Numbered from the stretch's first letter, positions 1,039-55,578 are shown. The stretch is DNA of 64,000 nt from Minisyncoccota bacterium (GCA_036399335.1 DASWNF010000014.1:108033-172032), one strand, 5' to 3'. Program-made: numbers and translations. The notes: generated by a model not told the origin, from the letters alone.

Positions 1039-1219
1039 GCCCGAAGATGAGCGGGCGGCACGAGCTTACGAAGTCGCACTGCCCCGTCGTCGTGTCGCAA
1101 ATTTCTACTTTCTCCGTATCGCAGGATTCGATGATGAATCCAAGCGCAATAAGTATCGCCGCGAGCGCGAGGAAATAGACCGTAAGGGGTATGGTTCCAG
1201 GGGCTTCGGGCTCAGGCAT
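1028..1219 (-). CDS. small hypothetical membrane protein (one TM helix, Cys-rich N-terminus)
   Basis: 63 aa ORF with hydrophobic segment LALAAILIALGFII; TAGTAT -10-like box 9 nt upstream; overlaps ruvB stop by 11 nt; weak. Confidence 0.2.
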   Translation of the reverse strand: MPEPEAPGTIPLTVYFLALAAILIALGFIIESCDTEKVEICDTTTGQCDFVSSCRPLIFGLIP

Positions 1220-1254
1220 ATGCCCATACTAGCAGTAGCCGCACCGGTTTTGCA

Positions 1255-1503
1255 TCATCCTCCGCTTTTTTTGATGAGTTCGAGCTTCTTCGTGCGCGGC
1301 CACGCTTTAATCTCCGCTTCGCGCCTGAGGGCGCTTGAGCGGTCTTCGCAGGTTTCCGTATGCGCCATGCGCACGGCTTTTTTCGCGGCCGTGTAGTTAC
1401 TCCCCCTCCCGCTTACATGCTCCCTAAAGCGCCGCTCGACGTCCGTCGTGATGCCGGTGTAGAGCGTACCGTCAGCGCACTCGAGCAAGTAAACGAAGTA
1501 CAT
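1255..1503 (-). CDS. GIY-YIG nuclease superfamily protein (UPF0213-like)
   Basis: Internal Met start of the 1255..1911 ORF; 82 aa MYFVYLLECADGTLYTGITTDVERRFREH matches GIY-YIG core; the 5' extension of that ORF overlaps the next gene and is composition-biased, so it is rejected. Confidence 0.7.
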   Translation of the reverse strand: MYFVYLLECADGTLYTGITTDVERRFREHVSGRGSNYTAAKKAVRMAHTETCEDRSSALRREAEIKAWPRTKKLELIKKSGG

Positions 1504-1519
1504 CAGTTTATGCGCAGCC

Positions 1520-1939
1520 CTATGACGCAGACTGCTCGCAATACCTCTTGAAGGAATTGAGGATGGCCTGCCATCCAGCACGCTGAAGCTCGTGCGCGTT
1601 TTCCGCCTCCGGCTCGAATGTCTGGGTGATATGGGTCGTCTCACCTTCCTGTGCAAAGACGGTTTCCACCTTTCGGCCGTCCGCGAGCGTATACGCGAGG
1701 CGCTCATGCATGACCACGTCATCATAGGTGCCGGTGAGGTCGAATCCCTCGCTCCCGTCTTTGGCTTCCATGCGCGAAAGGAAGACGCCTCCGGCACGCA
1801 CGTCATTCTCTGCGTGAGTCGTATGCCAGTCATCGGACGCGCTGTTCCACGCCTTGATGGCCTCGGTGCTCGTAAAGTCTCTCCATACGTTCTCAATGGG
1901 AGCGTGTACACGCGTCTCTACGGTAATTCGTTCGTCCAT
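1520..1939 (-). CDS. SRPBCC/AHSA1-family (activator of Hsp90 ATPase homolog-like) protein
   Basis: 139 aa; N-terminal ITVETRVHAPIENVWRDFTSTEAIKAW typical of AHSA1/SRPBCC ligand-binding fold. Confidence 0.7.
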   Translation of the reverse strand: MDERITVETRVHAPIENVWRDFTSTEAIKAWNSASDDWHTTHAENDVRAGGVFLSRMEAKDGSEGFDLTGTYDDVVMHERLAYTLADGRKVETVFAQEGETTHITQTFEPEAENAHELQRAGWQAILNSFKRYCEQSAS

Positions 1940-2069
1940 GGGAAAAGTATACCAATAGCGCCTCCGTGCAGTACTCGAAAGACGGTTTCAAATTAAATGG
2001 ACGTCTGCGGCGTTTCGGCACTTTTTCGCAACGTATGATAGGTTTTGTTTAGGTAACAGGAGAACCGAA

Positions 2070-2480
2070 ATGAGTAGTCCCGGCTTTGGCGCTAGGGCTC
2101 GGTCCCTGCGCAAGAAACTTGGATTAAACCCGATCCAGGCAGCCCTTGCGCTGAACATTAAGGCTCCCTCGCGAATTGAGGATATGGAACGCACCGGGGT
2201 TAGTCCCTGGACCTTCGAGGCACTCGAGTCTGCGTATTCCGCATTTCTGCACGCTGGCCCAACGTCTAGGGGGAGGAACCTGCTTTTCGGGCAGCTCCCT
2301 ATCTCAGTGGCGCGTAGCCTTCTACGCTTATCCGTTGAGGAAATAGCTGAGCGGTGTGGCTACTCCGTTTCCTTCTGGATGAGGATGGAGGCGGACCATC
2401 GGCCCCTCCGTGCTGATGTACTTAAACGGCTCGAAGCCGACGTTAAAGAAGAGGTTCGAAGGACTATTTTAAAATGCTAA
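2070..2480 (+). CDS. hypothetical protein with helix-turn-helix-like segments (possible XRE-type regulator)
   Basis: 136 aa; SD AGGAGAACC 6 nt upstream of ATG; two HTH-like segments (LGLNPIQAALALNI, LSVEEIAERCGYS); lies at the left edge of the low-GC island. Confidence 0.5.
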   Translation: MSSPGFGARARSLRKKLGLNPIQAALALNIKAPSRIEDMERTGVSPWTFEALESAYSAFLHAGPTSRGRNLLFGQLPISVARSLLRLSVEEIAERCGYSVSFWMRMEADHRPLRADVLKRLEADVKEEVRRTILKC

Positions 2481-2522
2481 TCGCCCACAGGTCGCCCGAC
2501 CTAGTTGGGCGATTCTGTTTAT
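2479..2522 (+). terminator. rho-independent terminator after the HTH gene
   Basis: 9-bp stem AATCGCCCA/TGGGCGATT followed by CTGTTTATT. Confidence 0.5.
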
Positions 2523-2537
2523 TGCTGGCTTAGGAAC
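2522..2537 (+). repeat. short copy (L) of the interspersed repeat family: TTGCTGGCTTAGGAAC
   Basis: Shares TTGCTGGC...GGAAC ends with the family consensus; sits directly after a terminator like copies A, G, H and K. Confidence 0.45.
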
Positions 2538-3002
2538 AACTAAGCCTTATAAAAAGTGGGCCGTTGCGCGAAGCAACGGCCCGTGGATCCTACCAGACGA
2601 GTGAGTTTCCTCACTAGCCAAAACGTCGCACCTGAAAGCGCATAATGACTCGTCTCCGAAGCTTCGGCGGGTGGCTTGAGCCCTCGCACGATACGGCTAT
2701 CCATTTGCCCTTAACGAGCTTTTGAAAGCTGCTTTTAGCCACTACTTTGGGGCCTTAGCTGTCGGTTAGGGATTATCCCTCTATGGTTTCCTTGACCAAG
2801 GATTTTCAGTCTTAATGCGGAAACCACCTCAGATCCGTATTTAGCCTAGCACCATCAAAGGACTTGTCCAGTACAGGTGTGGATGCTGGGTACGCGTCGC
2901 ACCGCTTCCGGTGCGGCCACGAGACACACGGCACTTTGCCGCTCTGACGCACTGCCCGCAGCCAGCGAGAAGCCCGCTTCCTCACGGCAGCGGGCTTTTT
3001 TC
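2538..3002 (+). ncRNA. candidate structured non-coding RNA (~460 nt), unclassified
   Basis: No credible ORF on either strand; many local hairpins (GGGCCGTTGC/GCAACGGCCC, CCGAAGCTTCGG, AGGGATTATCCCT, GCACCGCTTCCGGTGC); ends in a strong terminator AGCCCGCttcctcacggcAGCGGGCTTTTTT at 2971-3002; flanked by repeat copies L and A. Confidence 0.35.
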
Positions 3003-3007
3003 TTACC

Positions 3008-3028
3008 GGGCGGTAGGATGTTGGAATC
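3008..3028 (+). repeat. partial copy (A) of the interspersed repeat: GGATGTTGGAATC
   Basis: 3' half of the consensus ...GATGTTGGAAC; immediately follows a terminator. Confidence 0.4.
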
Positions 3029-3030
3029 TA

Positions 3031-3531
3031 CTAATCCTGTGCAACTTCTTCCGAGACACTTTGGTTGCGCGTAAGTATTAATCGAGGTTCACCCGTATCG
3101 TCGTAATTTTCCTCTCTGCCGGTAATTTGGAAATCATAGGATTGATACAACTTAACCGCATTATTTTCAGGGTGAACTCTTAACCAGACTTGCGGAGCAC
3201 TCTTCAGGTGCTCAAGGATTTGTTCCAATGCCCTGCGTCCAAGGCCTTGTTTCTGATATTCAGGGTCTATCGCAAGGCCGTTGATGTACGCTCTTCCATC
3301 TTCTTCTATTGCGTACGAGGCTGCCCCCACTACCTGGTCTCCTCGTCTTATAAAAAACATTGGTCCCTTCCTATACTCCTCTTCAGCCTCTGAACGATCT
3401 TGAGCGGCCGCATATGTTTTGCCCTGGACTTTCTTCTCCAACGCGACATACGCCTCAAGGTCGTCGAGCGTCATGCGTTGAAGCTCTATAGGCATTTGGG
3501 GGCCTCGCTCGCCCTTACTTTCAACTGACAT
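3031..3531 (-). CDS. GNAT family N-acetyltransferase
   Basis: Acetyl-CoA binding motif QKQGLGRRALEQILEH; 3031..3582 ORF with likely start at an internal Met; low-GC codon usage. Confidence 0.7.
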   Translation of the reverse strand: MSVESKGERGPQMPIELQRMTLDDLEAYVALEKKVQGKTYAAAQDRSEAEEEYRKGPMFFIRRGDQVVGAASYAIEEDGRAYINGLAIDPEYQKQGLGRRALEQILEHLKSAPQVWLRVHPENNAVKLYQSYDFQITGREENYDDTGEPRLILTRNQSVSEEVAQD

Positions 3532-3589
3532 GTCGAAAGTATAGCAGCCAAGCAAATGCTGGGCTCTGAAACGATGTCGCATCCTGCTG

Positions 3590-4063
3590 TTATAAGTAGG
3601 ATGCGAACTCTTCGTCAGAAAGTTCTAGAAGGGTCGCGTCTCGCGAAATGGGGAGCGTGGTCATCTCAACTCCCATCCAAGGTAAGGGGACGAAATTCTC
3701 CGCCTCTTCCACTGAGGTAAACTCCACTTCGGCACGCATTAAACCCTCATACTTGCCACGATATACCTGTATAGAGATTTTTGGGTTCTCAGAAATGTCG
3801 TAGCGATCTCTAACTAAGGCGTCTGGTGCTACTTTCTTGAGTGTATCGAACTCCTCAGCTGAAATTTCCTTCTTCTCTCGAGTGCGCTCTAAACTAGATA
3901 AAAGTTCCTTTCTTTCATAAAAGTACTTCTCATTTATTTTGGAAATCCTCTCCTCAATATTACCTTCGTTCTTTAGGATATGTCGTTCGTAGTGAAGTGG
4001 GGCTATGCCAGACATGTTAGGCATTTCCCTTACATAAAACTTTCGCTCGATTTCATTTTGCAT
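3590..4063 (-). CDS. CYTH-domain protein (triphosphate tunnel metalloenzyme family)
   Basis: 157 aa; N-terminal EIERKFYV signature of the CYTH/CyaB-ThTPase family; AT-rich; 8 nt upstream of the GNAT gene, so probably co-transcribed. Confidence 0.65.
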   Translation of the reverse strand: MQNEIERKFYVREMPNMSGIAPLHYERHILKNEGNIEERISKINEKYFYERKELLSSLERTREKKEISAEEFDTLKKVAPDALVRDRYDISENPKISIQVYRGKYEGLMRAEVEFTSVEEAENFVPLPWMGVEMTTLPISRDATLLELSDEEFASYL

Positions 4064-4067
4064 AATC

Positions 4068-4370
4068 TCAGGCAGCTTTACATACTTTTTTGGTCACGGC
4101 ATCAACAAATAAACGGAAAGCCGGTCGCCTCTCTTTCTCCCAAATAACCCTTACTCCAAGGATGTGCTTATTGGGGCATGCAAATGTTTCTTCCGCGGTA
4201 GGGACTGCCGAATTGATGATGCGATCTAAGTACATACGCCTCAGCGTACCCGGTCCGTCTTTTTGATAAAGGCAGATGTGCTTCGAACATTTTTCGCAGG
4301 CGATATCCAAAAGTCGAGCATATCCCCCACGAGACTTTCTGTACTTGTCGCTTTTAAGGAGACTAGTCAT
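4068..4370 (-). CDS. small Cys-rich (zinc-ribbon-like) hypothetical protein
   Basis: ~100 aa from an internal Met (MTSLLKSD...); CEKCSKHIC...CPNKH spacing; TACAAT -10-like box 9 nt upstream; the 5' extension of the ORF runs through repeat copy B and is rejected. Confidence 0.45.
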   Translation of the reverse strand: MTSLLKSDKYRKSRGGYARLLDIACEKCSKHICLYQKDGPGTLRRMYLDRIINSAVPTAEETFACPNKHILGVRVIWEKERRPAFRLFVDAVTKKVCKAA

Positions 4371-4389
4371 GCAGTGATTGTAACAACGA

Positions 4390-4418
4390 TTGCTGCACTC
4401 TGGGGCGATGTTGGAACC
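4390..4418 (+). repeat. interspersed repeat copy B: TTGCTGCACTCTGGGGCGATGTTGGAACC
   Basis: Near-consensus copy in the gap between two minus-strand island genes. Confidence 0.6.
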
Positions 4419-4425
4419 AGTATTT

Positions 4426-5097
4426 CTAGTATTTGTCCCCTTCTTCGATAGCAATAACTGGCAATTTATATCCTTCGGTTAGAAGTACCTGCTGTATTTC
4501 ACTTACTCGACCCCTCGGCGCTTCAATATGAGTGAATTTCTTGATAGAAATTGGCTCTAATACCCTATCTTCATGCAAGTCGACAAATTCAGAGCCATGG
4601 GTAATTGCATAGGCTTCGCGTTCAACGCCAATTAGAATTGGGTAGTTGGATGATATATCTGTACCGCCGCGAAGAAGAAGATAAAAAAGCGATTGGTTTT
4701 TGTGGGTAAACTTCGCTATGAATGTCGCGGCCTTACTCCTATAGCCAACAGTAAACGGAAGCGGTACGCGTTCCTTCCAAGCGACCCATACGCTTGGAAG
4801 GAGGTAGCGACAGCACCAGAGGCAACGGTTACAGAGCTCTTGCAAACTTCTCTGGCTTTTTGGGAAAAAGAGGCTTGCATACAAGCGTGCGTACCCTCGC
4901 GAACGGGCAAATGATACTGACCGTGCATGCGGACGCTTTTGGTCTGAAGCGTCGTCATAAATAGAGAGTCCACCTTCGTGCAGTATTCCTTTTAAAATAT
5001 CCATGACTTCTCCATTTTCATATTTATAGCGGCCGGTTCCATGCCAAGAACCAATGTTCTCGTAAAGCTCTTCAATTTTTGAGCTGGGTTCACGCAT
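4426..5097 (-). CDS. hypothetical protein (223 aa), low-GC island cargo
   Basis: Long ORF with AT-rich codon usage distinct from the core genome; no recognisable domain. Confidence 0.5.
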   Translation of the reverse strand: MREPSSKIEELYENIGSWHGTGRYKYENGEVMDILKGILHEGGLSIYDDASDQKRPHARSVSFARSRGYARLYASLFFPKSQRSLQELCNRCLWCCRYLLPSVWVAWKERVPLPFTVGYRSKAATFIAKFTHKNQSLFYLLLRGGTDISSNYPILIGVEREAYAITHGSEFVDLHEDRVLEPISIKKFTHIEAPRGRVSEIQQVLLTEGYKLPVIAIEEGDKY

Positions 5098-5123
5098 AGA
5101 TATAGAAACTATACCAATACTAA

Positions 5124-5149
5124 TTGCTGGACTCTGTGATGTTGGAGCC
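5124..5149 (+). repeat. interspersed repeat copy C: TTGCTGGACTCTGTGATGTTGGAGCC
   Basis: Shortened copy of the consensus. Confidence 0.5.
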
Positions 5150-5205
5150 CTTTTACAGTATGCAATTAGAAGCCCCCGGGATGTTGGTCCCGGGGGCGAG
5201 GCGCT

Positions 5206-5853
5206 TCACGAGAGCGCGAGGGCTTGGAGATTTTCTCGTGCCTGCGGCTCAAGGTGTTTGAAGTGCGGGGTGAGGTAGATCTTTGGGCGTTCGAGGAACG
5301 TGGCAGCCCACATCTTCCTGCCCTCATCGTACTCGGCGCGTGTATACCGCGGCTCGTATTCGAGCCAGATGGCTTCCGTTTGCGACTGGAAGTACGCAGG
5401 GTCCTGTCCCAGCCCCCAGAGATCGAGGTCGATGAGCGGTGCGACGATGTTGACGAAGCGCTCATCCACGCATTCCAGGGTATGGGTGATAGTCGCGGTA
5501 ATGCCCTGGTACACGAGCTCTTCAAGAGGCGGGTGCCGTTCACCGTCACGGCGTTGCAGGTCTTCAATTGCCAGCCGAGCGCTTTCACGCTCGCTCTCAC
5601 CGTGTTCACGACCGACCTTAAGCCAGCGGTCGTGGCTCACGATAAGGAATTTAAGCAGAAGGAGCTCGTTCCCCATCAACACGAGGCCGCGCGCCCCTTC
5701 CAGCATGCCGAGGATATGGTTGGCATCATGGTACGTCCGCCACCTCTCGGAATAGGAGCAGCAGAGAGGCTCGACTGCCGCATAGGGGATGCCGAGCTCG
5801 CCGTAGATTTCGGTAACGGCCAGCCGCAGTTCGTCTGTCGGACTAAATTTCAC
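5206..5853 (-). CDS. hypothetical protein, possible HD-type metal-dependent phosphohydrolase
   Basis: 215 aa; GTG start with strong SD GAGGAGGG 4 nt upstream; His/Asp motifs (RTYHDANH, IVSHD) reminiscent of HD hydrolases; a competing 224-aa antisense ORF (5224..5898) is judged less likely. Confidence 0.45.
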   Translation of the reverse strand: MKFSPTDELRLAVTEIYGELGIPYAAVEPLCCSYSERWRTYHDANHILGMLEGARGLVLMGNELLLLKFLIVSHDRWLKVGREHGESERESARLAIEDLQRRDGERHPPLEELVYQGITATITHTLECVDERFVNIVAPLIDLDLWGLGQDPAYFQSQTEAIWLEYEPRYTRAEYDEGRKMWAATFLERPKIYLTPHFKHLEPQARENLQALALS

Positions 5854-5979
5854 AACGCCCTCCTCAAAGGTCTATGGTTTAAGCCAGCTTCACGATAATA
5901 CACAATAGTGGATATGTATAGGACGATTGGGCCTGGGATGATGCCGAGGTTTTTATATACAAAACCGCCCCAATCATCG

Positions 5980-5996
5980 TTGCTGGGACGGGCTTC
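5980..5996 (+). repeat. degenerate copy (M) of the interspersed repeat: TTGCTGGGACGGGCTTC
   Basis: Left half plus GGGACG core only; intergenic. Confidence 0.25.
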
Positions 5997-6005
5997 ATGG
6001 TCTGA

Positions 6006-6263
6006 TTAGACCGTTTCGAGCTTGGACGGGGGGACATTGGCTTGGTAACCAGGTCCCCCATTGTCGAAGTTGACTCGTACCACTCCCCCCGCATCTTCGG
6101 GGAGATGCTGGAGTCGAGAGTCCCAGACGTCGCCAATCTCTCCTTTCGGAATCGGCGAGTATCCAGGGAAAGGAACCTCCTCGGTCGTTCGCACCCTGCG
6201 ACCGCCCAGAGAAGGACGAACGGGTACTTGCCCGGCGACTCGGTCATCTTTGATAACAGACAT
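6006..6263 (-). CDS. hypothetical small protein (85 aa)
   Basis: ATG preceded by a canonical SD AGGAGGTG at 8-nt spacing. Confidence 0.5.
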   Translation of the reverse strand: MSVIKDDRVAGQVPVRPSLGGRRVRTTEEVPFPGYSPIPKGEIGDVWDSRLQHLPEDAGGVVRVNFDNGGPGYQANVPPSKLETV

Positions 6264-6316
6264 AACACTCACCTCCTGTCGCTATCTAACTACGAATGCA
6301 CCGCTCTGTCCATTAC

Positions 6317-6338
6317 TGCTCTGGGACGATGTTGGAAC
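6317..6338 (+). repeat. interspersed repeat copy D: TGCTCTGGGACGATGTTGGAAC
   Basis: Consensus core; lies 14 nt upstream of a small plus-strand ORF. Confidence 0.55.
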
Positions 6339-6351
6339 TTTTCTGTACGAA

Positions 6352-6540
6352 ATGCCGCCCATTGACCCGGGCGGCACGGCTCGAGACTTACCGTGTCTCG
6401 AGAGCCTCAACCCGCGCAGGAGGCGGATGCTGGAGGCCTGGGAAAAGTTGGCCGCTCTACCGACCCAACTGGTGCTCTTAAGAAATGCTTTGATCAACGC
6501 TTATCAGCGGGGTTGGCCCAAATGTTACTTTCTGAGATGA
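6352..6540 (+). CDS. hypothetical small protein (62 aa)
   Basis: ATG 14 nt downstream of repeat copy D; no SD; Arg-rich; could be a spurious ORF within the high-GC patch. Confidence 0.25.
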   Translation: MPPIDPGGTARDLPCLESLNPRRRRMLEAWEKLAALPTQLVLLRNALINAYQRGWPKCYFLR

Positions 6541-6625
6541 CCCACCTTTCAAATCACTAAACGTAACAGTTTCACCTTTAGAGCCAAACCCGTATCAACT
6601 TCAACGAGGAAATAGAAGTGTAGTT

Positions 6626-6655
6626 TTGCTGGCAGTCTGGGACGACGTTGGAACC
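6626..6655 (+). repeat. interspersed repeat copy E: TTGCTGGCAGTCTGGGACGACGTTGGAACC (near-consensus)
   Basis: Full-length copy. Confidence 0.65.
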
Positions 6656-6659
6656 TTTA

Positions 6660-6693
6660 TTTAAAAGACCACCCTCTCGCCGCAGCGAGAGGG
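6660..6693 (-). terminator. rho-independent terminator of the minus-strand gene 6715..6975
   Basis: Stem CCCTCTCGC/GCGAGAGGG followed by TGGTCTTTT on the minus strand. Confidence 0.5.
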
Positions 6694-6714
6694 GATCTCG
6701 CGGACATTGGGTGG

Positions 6715-6975
6715 TCAGCCTTGTGGCGGCTTATACGGCCTGGTACCGCCGCGCATGGCCATGACAGGAATCGGGAACGCATCGTTGAAGTCGTGGCCGC
6801 CTTCCTCTTCGAGGATCAGGACGACGGCATCGCAAATCGAGTCGAGCTCTTCTTGTTGCATGCCCATGAACTTCTTGGAATAAAGACGCGCCATGACATG
6901 CGAGGTTGTCGGGTCGATGCTGTTCTCCCCCGTGTCATCCGAAATGAAGGTTACGGTCGTCGAGTCGAGGAGCAT
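6715..6975 (-). CDS. hypothetical small acidic protein (86 aa)
   Basis: AGGAG 10 nt upstream of ATG; followed by a terminator. Confidence 0.4.
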   Translation of the reverse strand: MLLDSTTVTFISDDTGENSIDPTTSHVMARLYSKKFMGMQQEELDSICDAVVLILEEEGGHDFNDAFPIPVMAMRGGTRPYKPPQG

Positions 6976-7141
6976 TCCGAGTCGCTCCTGATAGAGCTGT
7001 TGAATCCGAGCACGAATTCTGCGCTTCTGCTCCGCTCACTTGCGTAGAAGCCTGAAATATCAACGATCGGCATGACGCCTCTCCCTTTGTGCTGTTGCAG
7101 GGATTAATATAGCACATATTCACCAGCTTGTCATCACTTCC

Positions 7142-7171
7142 GTGCTGGCAGTCTGGGACGATGTTGGAACC
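7142..7171 (+). repeat. interspersed repeat copy F: GTGCTGGCAGTCTGGGACGATGTTGGAACC (consensus)
   Basis: Full-length copy. Confidence 0.65.
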
Positions 7172-7326
7172 TTTCATACGCTGTGGTAGCTTCTTAGCAC
7201 TTGGCAGGAGGCGTCGGAAAGCTACGGACTATCCGCAGGGATAGAAACGGCACGAGTCGGCATGCATCTGTCCGTTGAACCTACGTAACAGCGAAAGCGA
7301 GGTTGGCAGTTCGGAAAGACGACATC

Positions 7327-7358
7327 GGAGCTTGGTTAAACTAAACCAAGCTCCTTTT
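7327..7358 (+). terminator. rho-independent terminator
   Basis: GGAGCTTGGTTaaactaAACCAAGCTCC followed by TTTTATT; repeat copy G begins right after it. Confidence 0.6.
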
Positions 7359-7359
7359 A

Positions 7360-7388
7360 TTGCTGGCAGTCTGGGACGACGTTGGGAC
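7360..7388 (+). repeat. interspersed repeat copy G: TTGCTGGCAGTCTGGGACGACGTTGGGAC
   Basis: Full-length copy immediately after a terminator. Confidence 0.65.
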
Positions 7389-7694
7389 TTTTTTATCCCC
7401 AGATAGGCACTTATGCTAAACTCGTCACAGATGGCGTGATGCCTGGTACGTAGTACGGAGCAACCCTCTTAGGGCCACTGCTAGTTACCAGTCACGAAAG
7501 GCTTGAAAACGCACCCGTAGCACCCACCATAGCCCTTCCCAGCCCCCTGTTGAGTAGTGCGACCTACTCGTCGCAACAGGGTCGTGGAGGGGTTACTAGG
7601 CAGAAGAACGGCATGCGGCTGGAAGGAGTGTGCGTAAACTCCACTGGTGACATCGCGCCATTGCAGAGAGCACCCGTAAGGGTGTTTTCTGTTT
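7389..7694 (+). ncRNA. candidate structured non-coding RNA (~300 nt), unclassified
   Basis: No credible ORF; nested helices (CCCTGTTG...CAACAGGG enclosing GAGTAG/CTACTC); ends with a GNRA-capped hairpin CACCCgtaaGGGTG plus TTTTCTGTTT terminator at 7671-7694; bounded by repeat copies G and H. Confidence 0.3.
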
Positions 7695-7697
7695 CCC

Positions 7698-7724
7698 TGC
7701 TGGGGTCTGAACGATGCTGGAATC
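7698..7724 (+). repeat. interspersed repeat copy H (divergent): TGCTGGGGTCTGAACGATGCTGGAATC
   Basis: Diverged copy following a terminator. Confidence 0.45.
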
Positions 7725-7734
7725 AAGCTGGGTA

Positions 7735-7765
7735 TTGACAGACTTATTTAAGAGCAGTAAAAAAT
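7735..7765 (+). promoter_or_regulatory. sigma70-like promoter TTGACA-17 nt-TAAAAAAT
   Basis: Near-consensus -35 with 17-nt spacer and an A/T -10; upstream of the 7832 ORF. Confidence 0.45.
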
Positions 7766-7831
7766 ATTACCGCCAAGGTGGCGGTTGCCTGCGAGGAAAT
7801 GTGGGTAAGCATCCTGGAATGGGAGGCTCTA

Positions 7832-8185
7832 ATGAGTGAATCTTTTGTTCTTACGTCGACAGTCAGCTGGGCACGGTATTGGGCTCTCGTGGCCGTGCAC
7901 ATGGAGGTGAAATGCAATCCCTTAATCGCTCAAACGTGCCCGCACAAGGTCATTGTCGAACCCATCGAGAATAACGAGCGCAGCGTAATCGTTCGTGGCA
8001 TGTGCGAAGGGCAGCTCTTCAGGCTGGTTTGCCAGATTTTCCAAGTTCGCACCGGCGGGTGGCGCCTCGTGCGGATTCGTGGTTACGTCGGTACGAACAA
8101 CAACATAAACATGTCTCCCGTGAATTTCGAAGGGTACGAGGCGGCTTGGACGATCATGGAGCGAAATTATAACGAAGTCGACTAG
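7832..8185 (+). CDS. hypothetical protein (~117 aa)
   Basis: Start chosen at an internal ATG preceded by GGGAGG; followed by the terminator at 8199-8250. Confidence 0.4.
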   Translation: MSESFVLTSTVSWARYWALVAVHMEVKCNPLIAQTCPHKVIVEPIENNERSVIVRGMCEGQLFRLVCQIFQVRTGGWRLVRIRGYVGTNNNINMSPVNFEGYEAAWTIMERNYNEVD

Positions 8186-8198
8186 GCCCTGCCTATTC

Positions 8199-8250
8199 AG
8201 AGCCCTGACGGAGAGCCCTCTTGCTCTGCATCAGGGCTCTTCTAATTTTA
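8199..8250 (+). terminator. rho-independent terminator
   Basis: AGAGCCCTGA...TCAGGGCTCT stem followed by TCTAATTTTA. Confidence 0.45.
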
Positions 8251-8274
8251 AGTTGGCAGACTAGGTTTCGAACT
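8251..8274 (+). repeat. variant copy K of the repeat family: GTTGGCAGACTAGGTTTCGAACTC
   Basis: J/K subfamily (TTGCTGGCAGAyTAGGTTTCGAAC); marks the right border of the low-GC island, just upstream of yebC. Confidence 0.5.
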
Positions 8275-8312
8275 CACCTCCTTCTACGTATACGCTTTGG
8301 TATACTCCAACC

Positions 8313-36471: not shown

Positions 36472-38043
36472 TTACGGTTGGGCAGTGGTCGCCGTAAGCC
36501 GAGCGACCAGGGCTGTAAAGGCCGCTTCGTCCCGCACGATGATGAGGGTCTGGCGGTCAGCATACCCATAGAGGATAAGCGAGCGGCCGGAACGGTCGCG
36601 GAGCACGCGTACGTCGTGGTTCGCAACGACTGCGTCGACGAAGTTTTGCGGCGCCGGAGGCAGGAGCGGCTGCATGACAATGCTCGAAGTTGCCGTCGTT
36701 GGCGTAACGGGCTCAGGCATAACCGTACTTGTCGCATATTCCGGATACCAGAGACCCAGATCGGTAACCATGCGGTTCTCCCAACCGAGCATGCCGGCGA
36801 ATGTCCGCTCATATGAATTCACACGAAGGATGAAGAACGGCCTCGTCTCTCCTCCTGCGGCTATGACGCCGACGGTGCTTGAGAGGTCGACGTTACGCAT
36901 GAGTATGTCCGGAGCACCGAGACTGAGGCGGCGGATGAGCGCACCCCCGGGCTGCGGGGAGTTTGAGAGCCCGAGCGGCGTCGAGCTGGCTTCGGTCACA
37001 TAGGTCACAAGGATGTTCCCTTCGACGAGCGGTTGCCCTGCGGCGTCCGCGAGATCCTGTCGGTAGTTAGGGCCCATGAGTTCCATCTTCTCGTCAGCGT
37101 ATATGAGTGACGGGACGCCAAGCGTAGCCTGCTCCACGTTCCGATTCGTGGTGAACTGGTATGCGGCGAAGAGGCCGCCCGCTCCGAGCACGATAAGGAG
37201 TACGGAAAAGACCACCGGCAGGATGTGCCGTTCTTTCTTGGGCGCGGTGCGGCGGGTACCCGCATCCTTTTCCGCCGCGAGGACGCTGAAGGTAGAGGCG
37301 CGCTGGCTGTCGATGCGATCGGCAAAGTCCGAGGTATACGTGTGAAGCGAAGGTGCCCCCGCATCTTTCTGAAGCGGTATAACTCCGGGCGGCGGCATGG
37401 AGGGAGGCGCAGGCGCAACGTACGGCGGAGGGGCCGGTATGGGCGGAGGAACAGGCGCGGGCGGTATGTAAGCCGGTGGTGCAGGCGGAACATATGCTGG
37501 CTGAGGAGGCGGTGCGGGCGGGGGGGTGTACGCCGGAGGAGGGGGGACAGGTGCTGGCGGAACGTATGGCGGTGGCGGAGGAACAGGCGCGGGCGGCACG
37601 AATACGGGTGTCGGGGGAGGAGGTGGGACTGGAGGAGGTACTGGCCCTGCGGCAACTTTCTGGCGAAGGCGTGCGAGTACGGCTTCGCGCTGTTCGTCGG
37701 CGGATGGTGACGGTGGTGCAGGCGGCGGCGGCGGTTGTGTCGGTGCTGGCGGCGTGGGTGCCGGCCTTCGCACGGTAAAGATGTCTGCACTGTCGTCCTT
37801 CGAGAGCTCGAGAGTTTCTTGTGGGAAGTCGTGCACGATACCGCCCGGCCGATTTACGGGGGATGCATCGAACTCCGGCAAGGTAACGCTGTCGGCAGCG
37901 GGAGCTGCGGGCTTCGGGGACTGGGGCACCGGCTGGTTCGTAAGCCGAGCCACGTCTTTCGCATACGTACGGATGTACGGCGACATGTCGCGCGAGGGAT
38001 CGTTTCCTTGGTTTTGGTCTCCCGCAGGGGTAGCGTCAGCCAT
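36472..38043 (-). CDS. proline-rich membrane protein (523 aa)
   Basis: SD AAGGAG; ~150-aa run of PPxP repeats (PVPPPPPYVPPAPVPPPPAYTPPPAPPPQPAYVPPAPPAYIPPAPVPPPIPAPPPYVAPAPP); one TM; C-terminal globular domain. Confidence 0.6.
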   Translation of the reverse strand: MADATPAGDQNQGNDPSRDMSPYIRTYAKDVARLTNQPVPQSPKPAAPAADSVTLPEFDASPVNRPGGIVHDFPQETLELSKDDSADIFTVRRPAPTPPAPTQPPPPPAPPSPSADEQREAVLARLRQKVAAGPVPPPVPPPPPTPVFVPPAPVPPPPPYVPPAPVPPPPAYTPPPAPPPQPAYVPPAPPAYIPPAPVPPPIPAPPPYVAPAPPSMPPPGVIPLQKDAGAPSLHTYTSDFADRIDSQRASTFSVLAAEKDAGTRRTAPKKERHILPVVFSVLLIVLGAGGLFAAYQFTTNRNVEQATLGVPSLIYADEKMELMGPNYRQDLADAAGQPLVEGNILVTYVTEASSTPLGLSNSPQPGGALIRRLSLGAPDILMRNVDLSSTVGVIAAGGETRPFFILRVNSYERTFAGMLGWENRMVTDLGLWYPEYATSTVMPEPVTPTTATSSIVMQPLLPPAPQNFVDAVVANHDVRVLRDRSGRSLILYGYADRQTLIIVRDEAAFTALVARLTATTAQP

Positions 38044-41503: not shown

Positions 41504-41591
41504 TGACACCAAGTAAAAGCCCCTGCAATGAGGGGCTTCTTTTATCTTGGCAGAATAGGTTCCAGACCTTTGGGTGGTATAGAATGCGGGC

Positions 41592-45739: not shown

Positions 45740-46873
45740 ATGTCTATCACCAAGAACGGCTTCATATTGGCCGCTGTAAGCGCGCTTTTCCTCGCTTCGG
45801 CGGTTATTGCCCCTATAAGTGCCCAGGCGCAGACTTCCTGCTCCTTTTACCGTAACCTCGCCGTAGGTTCTTCGGGCGGCGATGTTTACTGCCTCCAGAA
45901 CTGGCTCGCTGCACAGGGCTACTTTGCTGCGGGTTCGACCGGCTACTACGGTCCAATCACCCAGCAGGCCGTAATCCGCTGGCAGCTTGCCTCTGGACAG
46001 CCGGCTACCGGCGTCTTCACTCCGGGTAGCTTTGGCCGCGAACTCGCGCCGCTCGGCGTGTCCTATACGAATAACTCAGCCGGTGCCGCTGATGCTATTC
46101 GGGACGCGGAAGAGGCTATCGATGATGCTGAAGACGAAATTGACGACGCGAGCGGAAGTCGTGCAGACGAAGCCGAAGACCTCCTCGACGACGCAGAAGA
46201 CGAGCTCGATGATGCTCGCCGCGCCTATGCGTCTGCTGACTACAGCCGCGCTATCGACCACGCCGAAGAGGCGGAAGACCTGGCCAACGAAGCCATTGAC
46301 GAGGTCGACGGTGACCGCAACGACCGTGATAACGACCGTGACGACGAAGACCGTGACGACGCGGCTGATGCCATTGATGACGCCCGCAACTCACTCGATG
46401 ATGCGTGGGACGAGGTAGATGAAGCATGGGAAGACGGTTGGGACACCGACGAGGCCGAAGATACCCTTCATGACGCCGATGACGTCCTGATGGACGCTGA
46501 GGACGCGTACGACGACCGTGACTACGACGAGGCACTCGACCTTGCCGACGTAGTCGAAGACCTCATCAGCGAGGCTCTCGATGAGATAGACGAGGACCGT
46601 GATGATGATTGGGATAACGACTACTACGGGAACGCTACTGACGCTCGGGATGCCCTCGAAGACGCTGAGGATAACCTCAACGATGCGTGGGATGACCTTG
46701 ATGACGCTTGGTATGACGGTTGGGACACCGACGAGGCCGAAGACATCCTCCACGACGCCGATGACGCCCTTATGGATGGCTGGGATGCCTACCGTGACGG
46801 TGATTACAGCGAGGCACTCGACCTTGCCGATGAAGTCGAAGACCTCATTGACGAGGCAATGGACGAAATCTAA
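45740..46873 (+). CDS. secreted protein with peptidoglycan-binding (PG_binding_1-like) domain and a long acidic D/E repeat region
   Basis: Signal/TM MSITKNGFILAAVSALFLASAVIA; DVYCLQNWLAAQGYFAAGSTGYYGPITQQAVIRWQ PG-binding motif; ~55-aa repeats DAEDxLDDAxDAYDDGDYDEALDLADEVEDLIDEALDEID; terminator at 46896-46925. Confidence 0.7.
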   Translation: MSITKNGFILAAVSALFLASAVIAPISAQAQTSCSFYRNLAVGSSGGDVYCLQNWLAAQGYFAAGSTGYYGPITQQAVIRWQLASGQPATGVFTPGSFGRELAPLGVSYTNNSAGAADAIRDAEEAIDDAEDEIDDASGSRADEAEDLLDDAEDELDDARRAYASADYSRAIDHAEEAEDLANEAIDEVDGDRNDRDNDRDDEDRDDAADAIDDARNSLDDAWDEVDEAWEDGWDTDEAEDTLHDADDVLMDAEDAYDDRDYDEALDLADVVEDLISEALDEIDEDRDDDWDNDYYGNATDARDALEDAEDNLNDAWDDLDDAWYDGWDTDEAEDILHDADDALMDGWDAYRDGDYSEALDLADEVEDLIDEAMDEI

Positions 46874-47010
46874 GCTCTACTGAGCTCGTTAAGCAAAAGA
46901 GCGCCCGTAATGGGCGCTCTTTTGCTTTTACACGCCTAAAGAGAGGAAACGCACATGGTATCCTTGGGTATCGTTGTTAAGCGACGTTACCAGTATTAAC
47001 AAAGATCTTT

Positions 47011-48180
<1,170 letters not shown>

Positions 48181-54811: not shown

Positions 54812-54954
54812 AGCCTTCCTTTATTTAGTTGTGCGCACGTATGTAATTGTCGCCTCGTTAATAAGAAATGCCCGCGGGGGCGGACATTTCAGGTAATAAA
54901 AACGTACCATATATATAGGTGGGGGGTCAATGAAGCCCGCACGGATTGAGTCGG

Positions 54955-54974
54955 CTCTGGGGCGATGTTGGAAC
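54955..54974 (+). repeat. interspersed repeat copy I: CTCTGGGGCGATGTTGGAAC
   Basis: Right-half consensus copy downstream of the low-GC gene. Confidence 0.55.
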
Positions 54975-54986
54975 TTTGTACCCGTC

Positions 54987-55532: not shown

Positions 55533-55553
55533 ATAGAACGATAATAGCAGTGA

Positions 55554-55578
55554 TTGCTGGCAGATTAGGTTTCGAACC
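55554..55578 (+). repeat. variant repeat copy J: TTGCTGGCAGATTAGGTTTCGAACC
   Basis: J/K subfamily; upstream of the low-GC gene. Confidence 0.55.

What the first reader, a model, noticed from the sequence alone, without database searches (positions are those of the whole stretch)
2538..3002. ~460-nt ORF-free, hairpin-rich segment ending in a strong terminator: candidate novel structured RNA
No convincing ORF on either strand and many perfect local stems. A canonical rho-independent terminator sits at the 3' end, and the segment is bracketed by repeat copies L and A. It does not show the conserved P4 or GNRA elements of RNase P RNA, the tmRNA tRNA-like ends, or the SRP domain IV motif.
Basis: seen in the sequence. 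Interest (0 to 1): 0.55.

Follow-up and report, generated by a model that had tools for sequence, protein, structure and literature searches.

The report
Orphan 23S rRNA fragment, opposite strand
The "new structured RNA" is mostly a stray, damaged copy of part of the large ribosomal RNA, lying on the other strand in a strain-specific gene-cassette island of a Patescibacteria (CPR) genome; it is probably a relic, but two other CPR genomes carry similar stray rRNA pieces, which leaves a small chance that it has a function.

Summary
The segment is real and non-coding. It has no ORF over 65 aa, no codon periodicity and no protein match in any of the six frames. It is only moderately hairpin-rich, in about the top 3-7% of the window.

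It is not a new RNA family. Rfam's bacterial LSU rRNA model matches the minus strand at 2845->2589 (38.3 bits, E 2e-10, below the 50-bit gathering score). The match covers 23S domain II helices 39, 40, 41 and 45 (E. coli 946-1191), all correctly paired. The GTPase-centre arm (H42-44) is collapsed from 106 to about 45 nt. The remaining ~155 nt (2846-3000) resembles nothing.

No other rRNA piece lies in the 64 kb. Intrinsic terminators close the unit on both strands.

The segment is one ORF-free unit in an island (~1.1-8.3 kb, between ruvB and yebC) whose units are separated by a 33-nt motif. That motif is conserved across Patescibacteria. The nearest relatives lack the whole island, and no homologue of the segment was found anywhere.

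Best reading: a captured, decaying 23S gene fragment (about 0.55).

Main rival: an expressed rRNA-domain mimic (about 0.25). It gains some support from two other CPR loci (L009, L070), which carry free-standing, well-formed H42-44 copies next to the same motif.

The parts
2589..2845 (-). 23S (LSU) rRNA-like core, equivalent to E. coli 23S 946-1191 (domain II helices 39-45)
   Evidence: Rfam RF02541 scores 38.3 bits, E 2.2e-10, model positions 968-1232, and 30.6 bits, E 1.1e-7 in a longer stretch. blastn against plasmids gives 33 records, all inside LSU genes on the opposite strand. There are two collinear blast/nhmmer blocks. Local alignment to E. coli 23S gives z 7.3 against shuffles.
2785..2825 (-). 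Helix 39 equivalent: GGUUUCC (2825-2819) pairs with GGAAACC (2791-2785); the loop is 27 nt instead of 10
   Evidence: Covariance-model alignment. All seven pairs differ from the consensus and all seven are kept.
2769..2779 (-). Helix 40 equivalent: GGGA-UAA-UCCC
   Evidence: The same hairpin was listed by the terminator scan.
2735..2766 (-). Helix 41, 5' strand (E. coli 991-1022)
   Evidence: 80-86% identity to E. coli, Methylobacterium and Paracoccus 23S. Paired in the model alignment.
2685..2734 (-). Degenerate remnant of the H42-H44 arm (GTPase-associated centre): about 50 nt where the rRNA has 106-112
   Evidence: The model skips 106 positions against 45 nt here. Pairwise alignment keeps GGCU.A.AAGCAGC and AUAGC but lacks the 5' strand of H42. 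A GAC-arm model does not detect it.
2656..2684 (-). Helix 41, 3' strand (E. coli ~1135-1163)
   Evidence: 93% identity over 28 nt to Methylobacterium 23S. Paired with 2766-2735.
2589..2655 (-). Helix 45 equivalent: AGACGAGU (2655-2648) pairs with ACUCGUCU (2602-2595) around a 45-nt loop, then the conserved GGUAGG (2594-2589)
   Evidence: E. coli coordinates.
2548..2582 (-). Intrinsic terminator for minus-strand transcripts: 10-bp hairpin at 2582-2558 plus ACUUUUUAUA
   Evidence: Sequence.
2846..2967 (.). Unassigned ~120 nt with local hairpins (2898-2915, 2929-2941, 2848-2887). On the minus strand it holds a weak promoter-like site: TGGACA (2870-2865), 16 nt, TGC-TAGGCT (2851-2843)
   Evidence: No similarity to 23S (z about -0.5) and no Rfam match. 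The promoter was read by eye and fails the scan's criteria, so it is inference only.
2967..3001 (+). On the minus strand it has only a weak U-tract
   Evidence: Sequence. MFE helix of 12 pairs. Sub-threshold terminator-type Rfam matches.
2998..3035 (+). Decayed copy ('A') of the Patescibacteria-wide 33-nt motif TTGCTGGCAGTCTGGGACGATGTTGGAACCTTT
   Evidence: PWM score -5.8, the 7th best site in 64 kb.
2518..2546 (+). Doubtful, strongly decayed motif copy ('L'); resembles the short variant TTGCTGGCAGAYTAGGTTTCGAAC
   Evidence: Gapless PWM score -49.6. Short-variant copies at 8254 and 55558.
2490..2514 (+). Terminator of the upstream HTH gene (2070-2480)

Best explanation
The core of the segment (2589-2845, minus strand) is a fragment of a 23S rRNA gene, covering domain II helices 39-45. 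It now sits alone as the cargo of one ORF-free unit in a strain-specific island (about 1.1-8.3 kb, between ruvB and yebC). The units of this island are separated by a 33-nt motif found all over Patescibacteria.

The fragment is most likely a decaying relic with no role of its own. It cannot act as rRNA, because it holds under 10% of a 23S. Its GTPase-centre arm has lost one strand of helix 42. The motif copies beside it are the most decayed in the island. Close relatives do without the whole island.

Shown: the homology, strand, helix map, isolation, absence from relatives and non-coding nature. Inferred: that it was captured from a 23S gene (donor unknown) and that it is functionless.
For: - Homology to 23S on the minus strand: Rfam LSU model E 2.2e-10 with H39, H40, H41 and H45 paired (also 68). 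blastn gives 33 alphaproteobacterial replicons, all inside LSU genes on the opposite strand. There are two collinear blocks at 80-93% identity, with z 7.3 against shuffles.
- Not a working rRNA gene. The score is below the gathering threshold. Only model positions 968-1232 of 2925 are present. No other LSU or SSU piece lies in 64 kb.
- Signs of decay. H42-44 is reduced from 106 to about 45 nt, with the 5' strand of H42 gone and the 3' strand region left unpaired. A GAC model does not detect it. The flanking motif copies are degenerate while others in the island are near-perfect.
- Not conserved. Relatives with 87-91% identical RuvB (76-82% nucleotide identity in flanking genes) carry quite different genes between ruvB and yebC and have no trace of the segment. 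No homologue was found among 80 AHSA1-linked loci, about 120 motif loci, phages or viral contigs.
- Non-coding.
- No strand bias in G-U pairs.
- Published work reports one rRNA copy per CPR genome and loss of H9, H63, H78 and H98, not of H42-44 (PMC9297842).
Against: - The retained helices are all perfectly paired, which is unexpected for an old pseudogene. It is compatible with a recent one.
- A good minus-strand terminator follows the rRNA-like part within 7 nt, and a weak promoter-like site precedes it. Together they look like a tidy ~290-nt transcription unit.
- Two other CPR loci hold free-standing, well-formed copies of the neighbouring 23S arm (H42-44) right next to copies of the same motif and in the same relative orientation. 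This recurrence hints at selection for rRNA-derived cargo.
- No 23S from this organism or any other CPR bacterium could be retrieved, so the donor and age of the fragment are unknown.
- About 155 nt of the segment (2846-3000) remain unexplained.
Confidence: 0.55

Rival explanations
1. The fragment is an expressed, trans-acting mimic of a 23S rRNA domain. A minus-strand RNA of about 290 nt would present the H39-H41/H45 platform. By established knowledge, the H40-H41 junction is the binding site of ribosomal protein bL20. The RNA would then act as a sponge or decoy for ribosomal proteins, assembly factors or ribosome-targeting agents. It would belong to a wider set of rRNA-derived cassettes in Patescibacteria.
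For: - H39, H40, H41 and H45 are intact and perfectly paired.
- A terminator follows immediately on the correct strand.
- A weak promoter-like site lies at 2870-2843 (read).
- L009 (5295-5448) and L070 (5800-5641) carry orphan H42-44 arms next to motif copies. The two are homologous to each other (E 4e-3), and 13 of 28 predicted pairs are kept through double changes relative to real rRNAs.
Against: - Only three instances, and this one covers a different part of domain II from the other two.
- The GAC part here is crippled.
- No homologue of this unit exists elsewhere, and close relatives lack it.
- The compensatory changes could all predate the copying from a real 23S.
- No expression data.
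- No match to the Rfam L20 leader or any other r-protein leader.
Confidence: 0.25
2. A plus-strand RNA of about 445 nt runs from about 2558 to the strong terminator at 3001. It is then either a new structured RNA or an antisense RNA complementary to 23S helices 40-41 and 45.
For: - The plus-strand terminator is canonical.
- The 5' end would start with a stable 10-bp hairpin.
- z is -4.15 on the plus strand, and the 2847-2996 sub-window folds better on + (-3.0) than on - (-0.9).
- Other ORF-free units in the island (7175-7359, 7393-7696) also end in plus-strand terminators.
Against: - No promoter-like site on the plus strand. The nearest TATAAA is 20 nt from a TTGCTG, which is too far.
- The recognisable, base-paired homology is on the minus strand.
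- The left-hand hairpin is built as a minus-strand terminator.
- No conservation, so no covariation.
- The terminator can equally serve read-through from the HTH gene.
Confidence: 0.07
3. It is a genuine piece of this organism's 23S rRNA, whose gene is split or interrupted by very long insertions. Such insertions are common in CPR rRNA genes.
For: 77% of CPR 23S genes carry insertions of 100 nt or more, totalling up to 5.7 kb per gene (PMC9297842; PMC11270868). The long H39 and H45 loops sit at helix tips, where such insertions usually occur.
Against: - No other LSU segment lies anywhere in 64 kb by Rfam or nhmmer.
- The essential H42-44 arm is defective.
- A terminator cuts the sequence after H45.
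- Relatives with the same flanking genes lack the locus.
- Protein genes and motif copies surround it.
Confidence: 0.02
4. It is a decayed protein-coding cassette, or simply a long spacer between convergent genes whose terminators account for the structure. On this reading the rRNA similarity is incidental.
For: Four short minus-strand ORFs tile the region in alternating frames. Units of 300-700 nt in other arrays each hold one small gene. The central 150 nt is not unusually structured.
Against: No protein similarity in any frame. No codon periodicity. The rRNA match is significant by three independent methods and respects four helices.
Confidence: 0.05

Closest known systems
Bacterial 23S (LSU) rRNA, domain II helices 39-45 (Rfam RF02541)
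   Same: Sequence blocks of 80-93% identity to real 23S genes. Collinear order. H39, H40, H41 and H45 base-paired as in the family model. The conserved GGUAGG follows H45.
   Different: - Only about 257 nt of about 2900.
- Score below the curated threshold.
- H42-44 arm collapsed.
- No 16S, 5S or other 23S parts nearby.
- Ends in a terminator.
- Lies in an accessory island that relatives lack.
Ribosomal-protein leader mimics of rRNA (e.g. the L20 leader, which imitates the H40-H41 junction; the L10 leader)
   Same: Contains the H40-H41 junction that bL20 recognises on the ribosome (established knowledge). Would be an rRNA look-alike outside the ribosome.
   Different: Leaders are short convergent mimics upstream of ribosomal-protein genes. 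This element is a long, collinear copy of rRNA sequence. It is not upstream of any ribosomal-protein gene and has no Rfam leader match.
Orphan H42-H44 (GTPase-associated centre) elements found here in two other CPR genomes (L009 = JAHJZL010000054.1, 5295-5448; L070 = JBBDKG010000020.1, 5800-5641)
   Same: Free-standing 23S domain II pieces in ORF-free units, directly beside copies of the same 33-nt motif. The rRNA-sense strand lies on the reverse-complement strand of the motif. In L009 the piece is followed by a terminator.
   Different: Those two hold the arm that is defective here, and they lack H39-41 and H45. They are homologous to each other but not detectably to this unit, apart from the shared rRNA ancestry.
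Integron gene-cassette arrays (attC-delimited)
   Same: Co-oriented short repeats separate single-gene units of unrelated content. Content varies between close relatives.
   Different: The repeat is a 33-nt, near-invariant, non-palindromic sequence rather than a variable attC hairpin. No integrase was seen. Genes occur in both orientations. Recombination was not shown. The repeat may instead be a promoter-associated protein-binding site.

Membership tests
Bacterial LSU rRNA (Rfam RF02541) | Score at or above the curated gathering threshold (50 bits) | tested here: not met
   38.3 bits and 30.6 bits. Not reported at gathering level.
Bacterial LSU rRNA (Rfam RF02541) | Sequence and base-pairing of helices 39, 40, 41 and 45 | tested here: met
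   Model alignment with these helices paired, E 2.2e-10. Collinear blast/nhmmer blocks.
Bacterial LSU rRNA (Rfam RF02541) | Full-length molecule with all six domains, including the peptidyl-transferase centre | tested here: not met
   Only model positions 968-1232 of 2925. No other LSU-like stretch in 64 kb. The upstream 155 nt is not LSU-like.
Bacterial LSU rRNA (Rfam RF02541) | Intact GTPase-associated centre (H42-H44) | tested here: not met
   106 model positions are replaced by about 45 nt. The H42 5' strand is missing. No hit with the GAC-arm model R1.
   The three contigs are 100% identical. The nearest relatives lack the locus. No hits.
   There are no divergent homologues to align.
   Terminators are present on both strands. 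No promoter passes the scan. A weak minus-strand candidate was read by eye. No expression data.
RNase P RNA, tmRNA, SRP RNA, 6S and all other Rfam families | Match to the family covariance model | tested here: not met
   ARAGORN finds no tmRNA.
Ribosomal-protein leader (rRNA mimic) | Located in the 5' UTR of a ribosomal-protein operon and matching a leader model | tested here: not met
   The neighbours are an HTH gene and a GNAT acetyltransferase. No leader family appears in the Rfam scans.
Protein-coding gene or pseudogene | ORF, codon periodicity or protein similarity in some frame | tested here: not met
Intrinsic (rho-independent) terminator | G+C-rich hairpin followed by a U-run | tested here: met
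   Minus strand: 2582-2558 plus U5. Plus strand: 2970-2997 plus U6 (terminator-type matches).

The most novel reading that the evidence does not exclude
Patescibacteria carry, in motif-delimited accessory cassettes, small genes for free-standing copies of 23S rRNA domain II sub-domains. Examples are the H42-44 GTPase-centre arm in L009 and L070, and the H39-41/H45 platform here. These copies would be transcribed and would act in trans as decoys or sponges for ribosomal proteins, assembly factors, antibiotics or toxins that recognise those rRNA surfaces. The unit in this window would be a member, possibly a decaying one.
Probability: 0.2. Interest if true: 0.8.

Novelty: new variant of a known kind. 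Interest (0 to 1): 0.42.

Why it matters
Taken as a relic, this is a warning for RNA-discovery screens. rRNA-derived fragments below the family threshold, and on the unexpected strand, pass as ORF-free, hairpin-rich, terminator-ended novel RNAs. Rfam found this one only when the search was narrowed to a few hundred bases.

If the recurrence seen in two other CPR genomes is real, it points to something new: mobile cassettes that carry isolated ribosomal-RNA domains.

The 33-nt motif that delimits these units is itself near-invariant across very distant Patescibacteria classes. I found no description of it, and its role is open (promoter-associated operator or cassette boundary).

Tried and rejected
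- Rfam on the whole window and on 701 nt missed the LSU match. It appeared only with 301- and 446-nt inputs.
- tmRNA and tRNA by ARAGORN: none in the region.
- Pseudogene test: six-frame Pfam scan, plus one concatenated six-frame query against 5.8 billion proteins, found nothing.
- Synteny route 1: the neighbouring HTH protein has no homologue at all.
- Synteny route 2: 80 metagenome loci with AHSA1 homologues (48-64% identity) carry no similar DNA beside the gene.
- Synteny route 3: exact-protein look-ups of the HTH protein, RuvB and YebC return only the same population.
- Synteny route 4: RuvB relatives at 87-91% identity have different cargo between ruvB and yebC.
- Sequence route: nhmmer and blastn against all held loci, phages and two junction-specific 21-23-mers in viral contigs found nothing.
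- A MAFFT alignment suggested that 2846-3000 continues the 23S homology into H35-38. I rejected this because local alignment scores equal those of shuffles and Rfam finds nothing there.
- The other ORF-free units of the island (6343-6625, 7175-7696) were tested for rRNA or other known RNA similarity. None was found.
- Motif as a sigma-70, sigma-54 or ECF promoter: no conserved -10 at a fixed distance, and the hexamers do not fit.
- Motif as rRNA-derived: its best matches to E. coli 23S (33-56 and 985-998) are not beyond shuffles.
- A GAC-arm covariance model found no further orphan copies in 775 kb of CPR loci.
- A first attempt at window-wide z-scores timed out and was redone with 150-nt windows.

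Full report
**The locus**

The finding lies in the 550-nt gap between a plus-strand HTH gene (2070-2480) and a minus-strand GNAT acetyltransferase gene (3031-3582). The window is a chromosome piece of a Patescibacteria (Parcubacteria/Paceibacteria-type) bacterium. It holds ruvB at 34-1038 and yebC, ruvC and a PBP1A gene from 8313 on. The closest RuvB proteins are annotated as Parcubacteria or Paceibacterota. Between ruvB and yebC the G+C content drops from about 0.6 to 0.40-0.55. Three assemblies from different samples carry the locus with 100% identity. It is therefore not an assembly artefact, but these copies give no comparative signal.

**Checking the observation**

The stretch is non-coding.
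- No ORF exceeds 65 aa.
- Codon-position G+C differs by 0.05-0.12, against 0.15-0.32 in the flanking genes.
- Six-frame translations match no Pfam family and nothing among 5.8 billion proteins.

The right-hand terminator is real: stem 2970-2978/2989-2997 followed by T6. A second terminator, built for the opposite strand, closes the left end (2582-2558 plus U5).

The structure is above chance but not extreme.
- Whole-segment z is -4.15 (+) and -3.54 (-).
- Against the window's own 150-nt background (mean -0.35, sd 1.5), the outer thirds reach about -3 to -4 on one or both strands while the middle third is ordinary. The three-window mean ranks 14th of 423.
- There are three perfect hairpins of 6 bp or more, against 0.94 +/- 0.94 expected.
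- G-U pairs do not favour a strand.

**What it is**

Rfam at its gathering thresholds, and an E-value scan of 701 nt, gave only terminator-like noise.

The clue came from a blastn search of plasmids. Window 2735-2782 matched 33 alphaproteobacterial replicons at 84-86% identity. Rfam showed that every such place lies inside an LSU rRNA gene on the opposite strand.

Local searches then gave two collinear blocks on the window's minus strand:
- 2782->2735 corresponds to E. coli 23S 973-1021.
- 2683->2656 corresponds to E. coli ~1136-1163, with 93% identity to Methylobacterium 23S.

Given only 301 nt, Rfam's LSU_rRNA_bacteria model aligned 2845->2589 at 38.3 bits, E 2.2e-10. With 446 nt it scored 30.6 bits. 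The alignment shows:
- Helix 39 (2825-2819/2791-2785), helix 40 (2779-2769), helix 41 (2766-2735 with 2684-2656) and helix 45 (2655-2648/2602-2595) are all base-paired.
- The conserved GGUAGG follows at 2594-2589.
- The H42-44 arm, the GTPase-associated centre, is reduced from 106 model positions to about 45 nt. Pairwise alignment shows remnants of H43/H44 but no 5' strand of H42.

The 155 nt upstream on that strand (2846-3000) are not rRNA-like (z about -0.5 against shuffles, versus 7.3 for the core). Nothing else in the 64 kb resembles 23S or 16S rRNA.

The segment is therefore an isolated, truncated derivative of 23S domain II. Published surveys report one rRNA copy per CPR genome, frequent insertions at helix tips, and loss of H9, H63, H78 and H98, not of H42-44 (PMC9297842, PMC11270868).

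**Context**

- It occurs on the plus strand at 4389, 6310, 6626, 7142, 7360 and 54946. Weaker copies lie at 2998, 3554, 5119 and 7697.
- A pattern scan of one genome per species found it, often in co-oriented arrays, in Saccharibacteria, Paceibacterota, Levyibacteria, WWE3, Berkelbacteria, Nomurabacteria, Wolfebacteria, Lloydbacteria and Kaiserbacteria. Single hits in Rhodobacterales and other groups share coding flanks and are unrelated.
- Units between copies are 300-700 nt and usually hold one small gene in either orientation.
- No conserved -10 box follows at a fixed distance.
- Next to the finding, copy A is a decayed copy and copy L is doubtful.

The island is thus a string of roughly ten such units, and the rRNA-like unit is the end one. 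The closest relatives (RuvB 87-91% identical; 76-82% nucleotide identity in ruvB, yebC, ruvC and the PBP gene) have entirely different genes between ruvB and yebC. They have no motif and no trace of the segment.

**Search for homologues**

None was found by synteny or by sequence. Covariation cannot be assessed.

**A recurrence elsewhere**

nhmmer with 23S queries over all 2.5 Mb of held loci found two more orphan pieces, both in CPR loci that had been fetched only because they contain the motif.
- In L009 a 155-nt ORF-free unit lies between two reverse-complement motif copies (5266-5294 and 5449-5477). It holds a complete-looking H42-H44 arm closed by an 11-bp stem and followed by a hairpin and T-run.
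- In L070 a similar arm follows a degenerate motif copy.
- The two are homologous to each other over about 120 nt (E 4e-3).
- Both keep the H42, H43 and H44 pairs. 13 of 28 predicted pairs are kept through double changes relative to proteobacterial rRNAs.
- No ribosomal-protein gene is adjacent.
- In all three cases the rRNA-sense strand is the reverse-complement strand of the motif.
- A covariance model of the arm found no further copies in 775 kb of CPR loci and does not detect the remnant in this window.

**Interpretation**

The identity of the core is secure. Its meaning is less so.

For a relic:
- one strand of H42 is deleted;
- the flanking motif copies are decayed;
- close relatives lack it;
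- no homologues were found.

For a function:
- the remaining helices are perfectly paired;
- a terminator sits 7 nt after the rRNA-like part on the correct strand;
- a weak promoter-like site (TGGACA-16-TGCTAGGCT, 2870-2843) lies just upstream. I read this by eye, and it fails the scan's criteria;
- the L009 and L070 elements exist.

I rate a captured, decaying 23S fragment at about 0.55 and an expressed rRNA-domain mimic at about 0.25. A genuine split 23S, a dead protein gene or mere spacer together get under 0.1.

**Verdict**

This is not a new RNA family. It is a new variant of a known kind: a free-standing, truncated 23S domain II copy. It is ordinary if it is junk. It is notable if the hinted class of rRNA-domain cassettes in Patescibacteria proves real.

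Noticed in passing
window 4389-4421, 6310-6342, 6626-6658, 7142-7174, 7360-7392, 54946-54978 (+); weaker copies at 2998-3035, 3554-3591, 5119-5150, 7697-7725: The 33-nt motif TTGCTGGCAGTCTGGGACGATGTTGGAACCTTT is near-invariant across distant Patescibacteria classes and often forms co-oriented arrays 300-700 nt apart. It commonly follows a terminator and lies 20-70 nt from a start codon on either side. No fixed -10 box follows it, and the sequence appears in no paper of the searched library. It could be a promoter-associated operator or a cassette boundary; this is unresolved.
   Followed up: partly
L009 5295-5448 (+); L070 5800-5641 (-): Free-standing, well-paired copies of 23S helices 42-44 (the uL11/uL10-binding GTPase centre) sit in ORF-free units beside motif copies in two other CPR genomes. 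They are homologous to each other and are not next to ribosomal-protein genes.
   Followed up: partly
window ~1040-8300: The ruvB-yebC interval is a hypervariable spot. This genome has about 7 kb of mostly unannotatable genes with lower G+C. Three relatives with 87-91% identical RuvB each carry different cargo: a phosphatase and NUDIX; an ABC transporter and peptidase S9; RelB/YafQ and OTCase.
   Followed up: yes
window 6343-6625, 7175-7359, 7393-7696: Three further ORF-free units lie between motif copies. The last two end in plus-strand terminators directly abutting the next motif. They have no Rfam, rRNA or plasmid similarity and no unusual folding.
   Followed up: partly
window 8244-8273 and 55545-55577 (+); weaker copy at 41548-41567: A shorter relative of the motif, (T)TGCTGGCAGAYTAGGTTTCGAAC, lies about 30-45 nt upstream of TATACT boxes of the core genes yebC and a pilB-like ATPase gene. 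Copy 'L' beside the finding resembles this variant.
   Followed up: no
window 2070-2480 (+): The HTH (XRE-like) ORF next to the finding has no homologue other than itself among 5.8 billion proteins, and it shows weak codon periodicity.
   Followed up: partly
motif compared with E. coli 23S 33-56 and 985-998: The motif resembles two conserved 23S stretches: 19 of 24 positions at 33-56, and its reverse complement matches 13 of 14 at CCCAGACCGCCAGC. In L009, nhmmer ran a motif copy collinearly into the H42-44 arm. By shuffling this is not significant (fraction of shuffles scoring at least as high: 0.017 and 0.10, over eight tests).
   Followed up: partly
window 46100-48173 and 37442-37756: Long runs of acidic (GAC/GAA-rich, D/E/A-coding) imperfect repeats, including 194-nt units, and a Gly-rich GGC/GGA repeat block. 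These are presumably low-complexity protein regions.
   Followed up: no
several CPR loci, e.g. L014 4839-, L022 4266-, L038 5709-, L097 4286-, L106: A subset of motif copies carries a conserved extension...GGAACCTTTATGCAAYNTRTGNTAGGTTCTGTCYAGA, just before the RBS and ATG of unrelated genes. The extension can pair with the right half of the motif.
   Followed up: no
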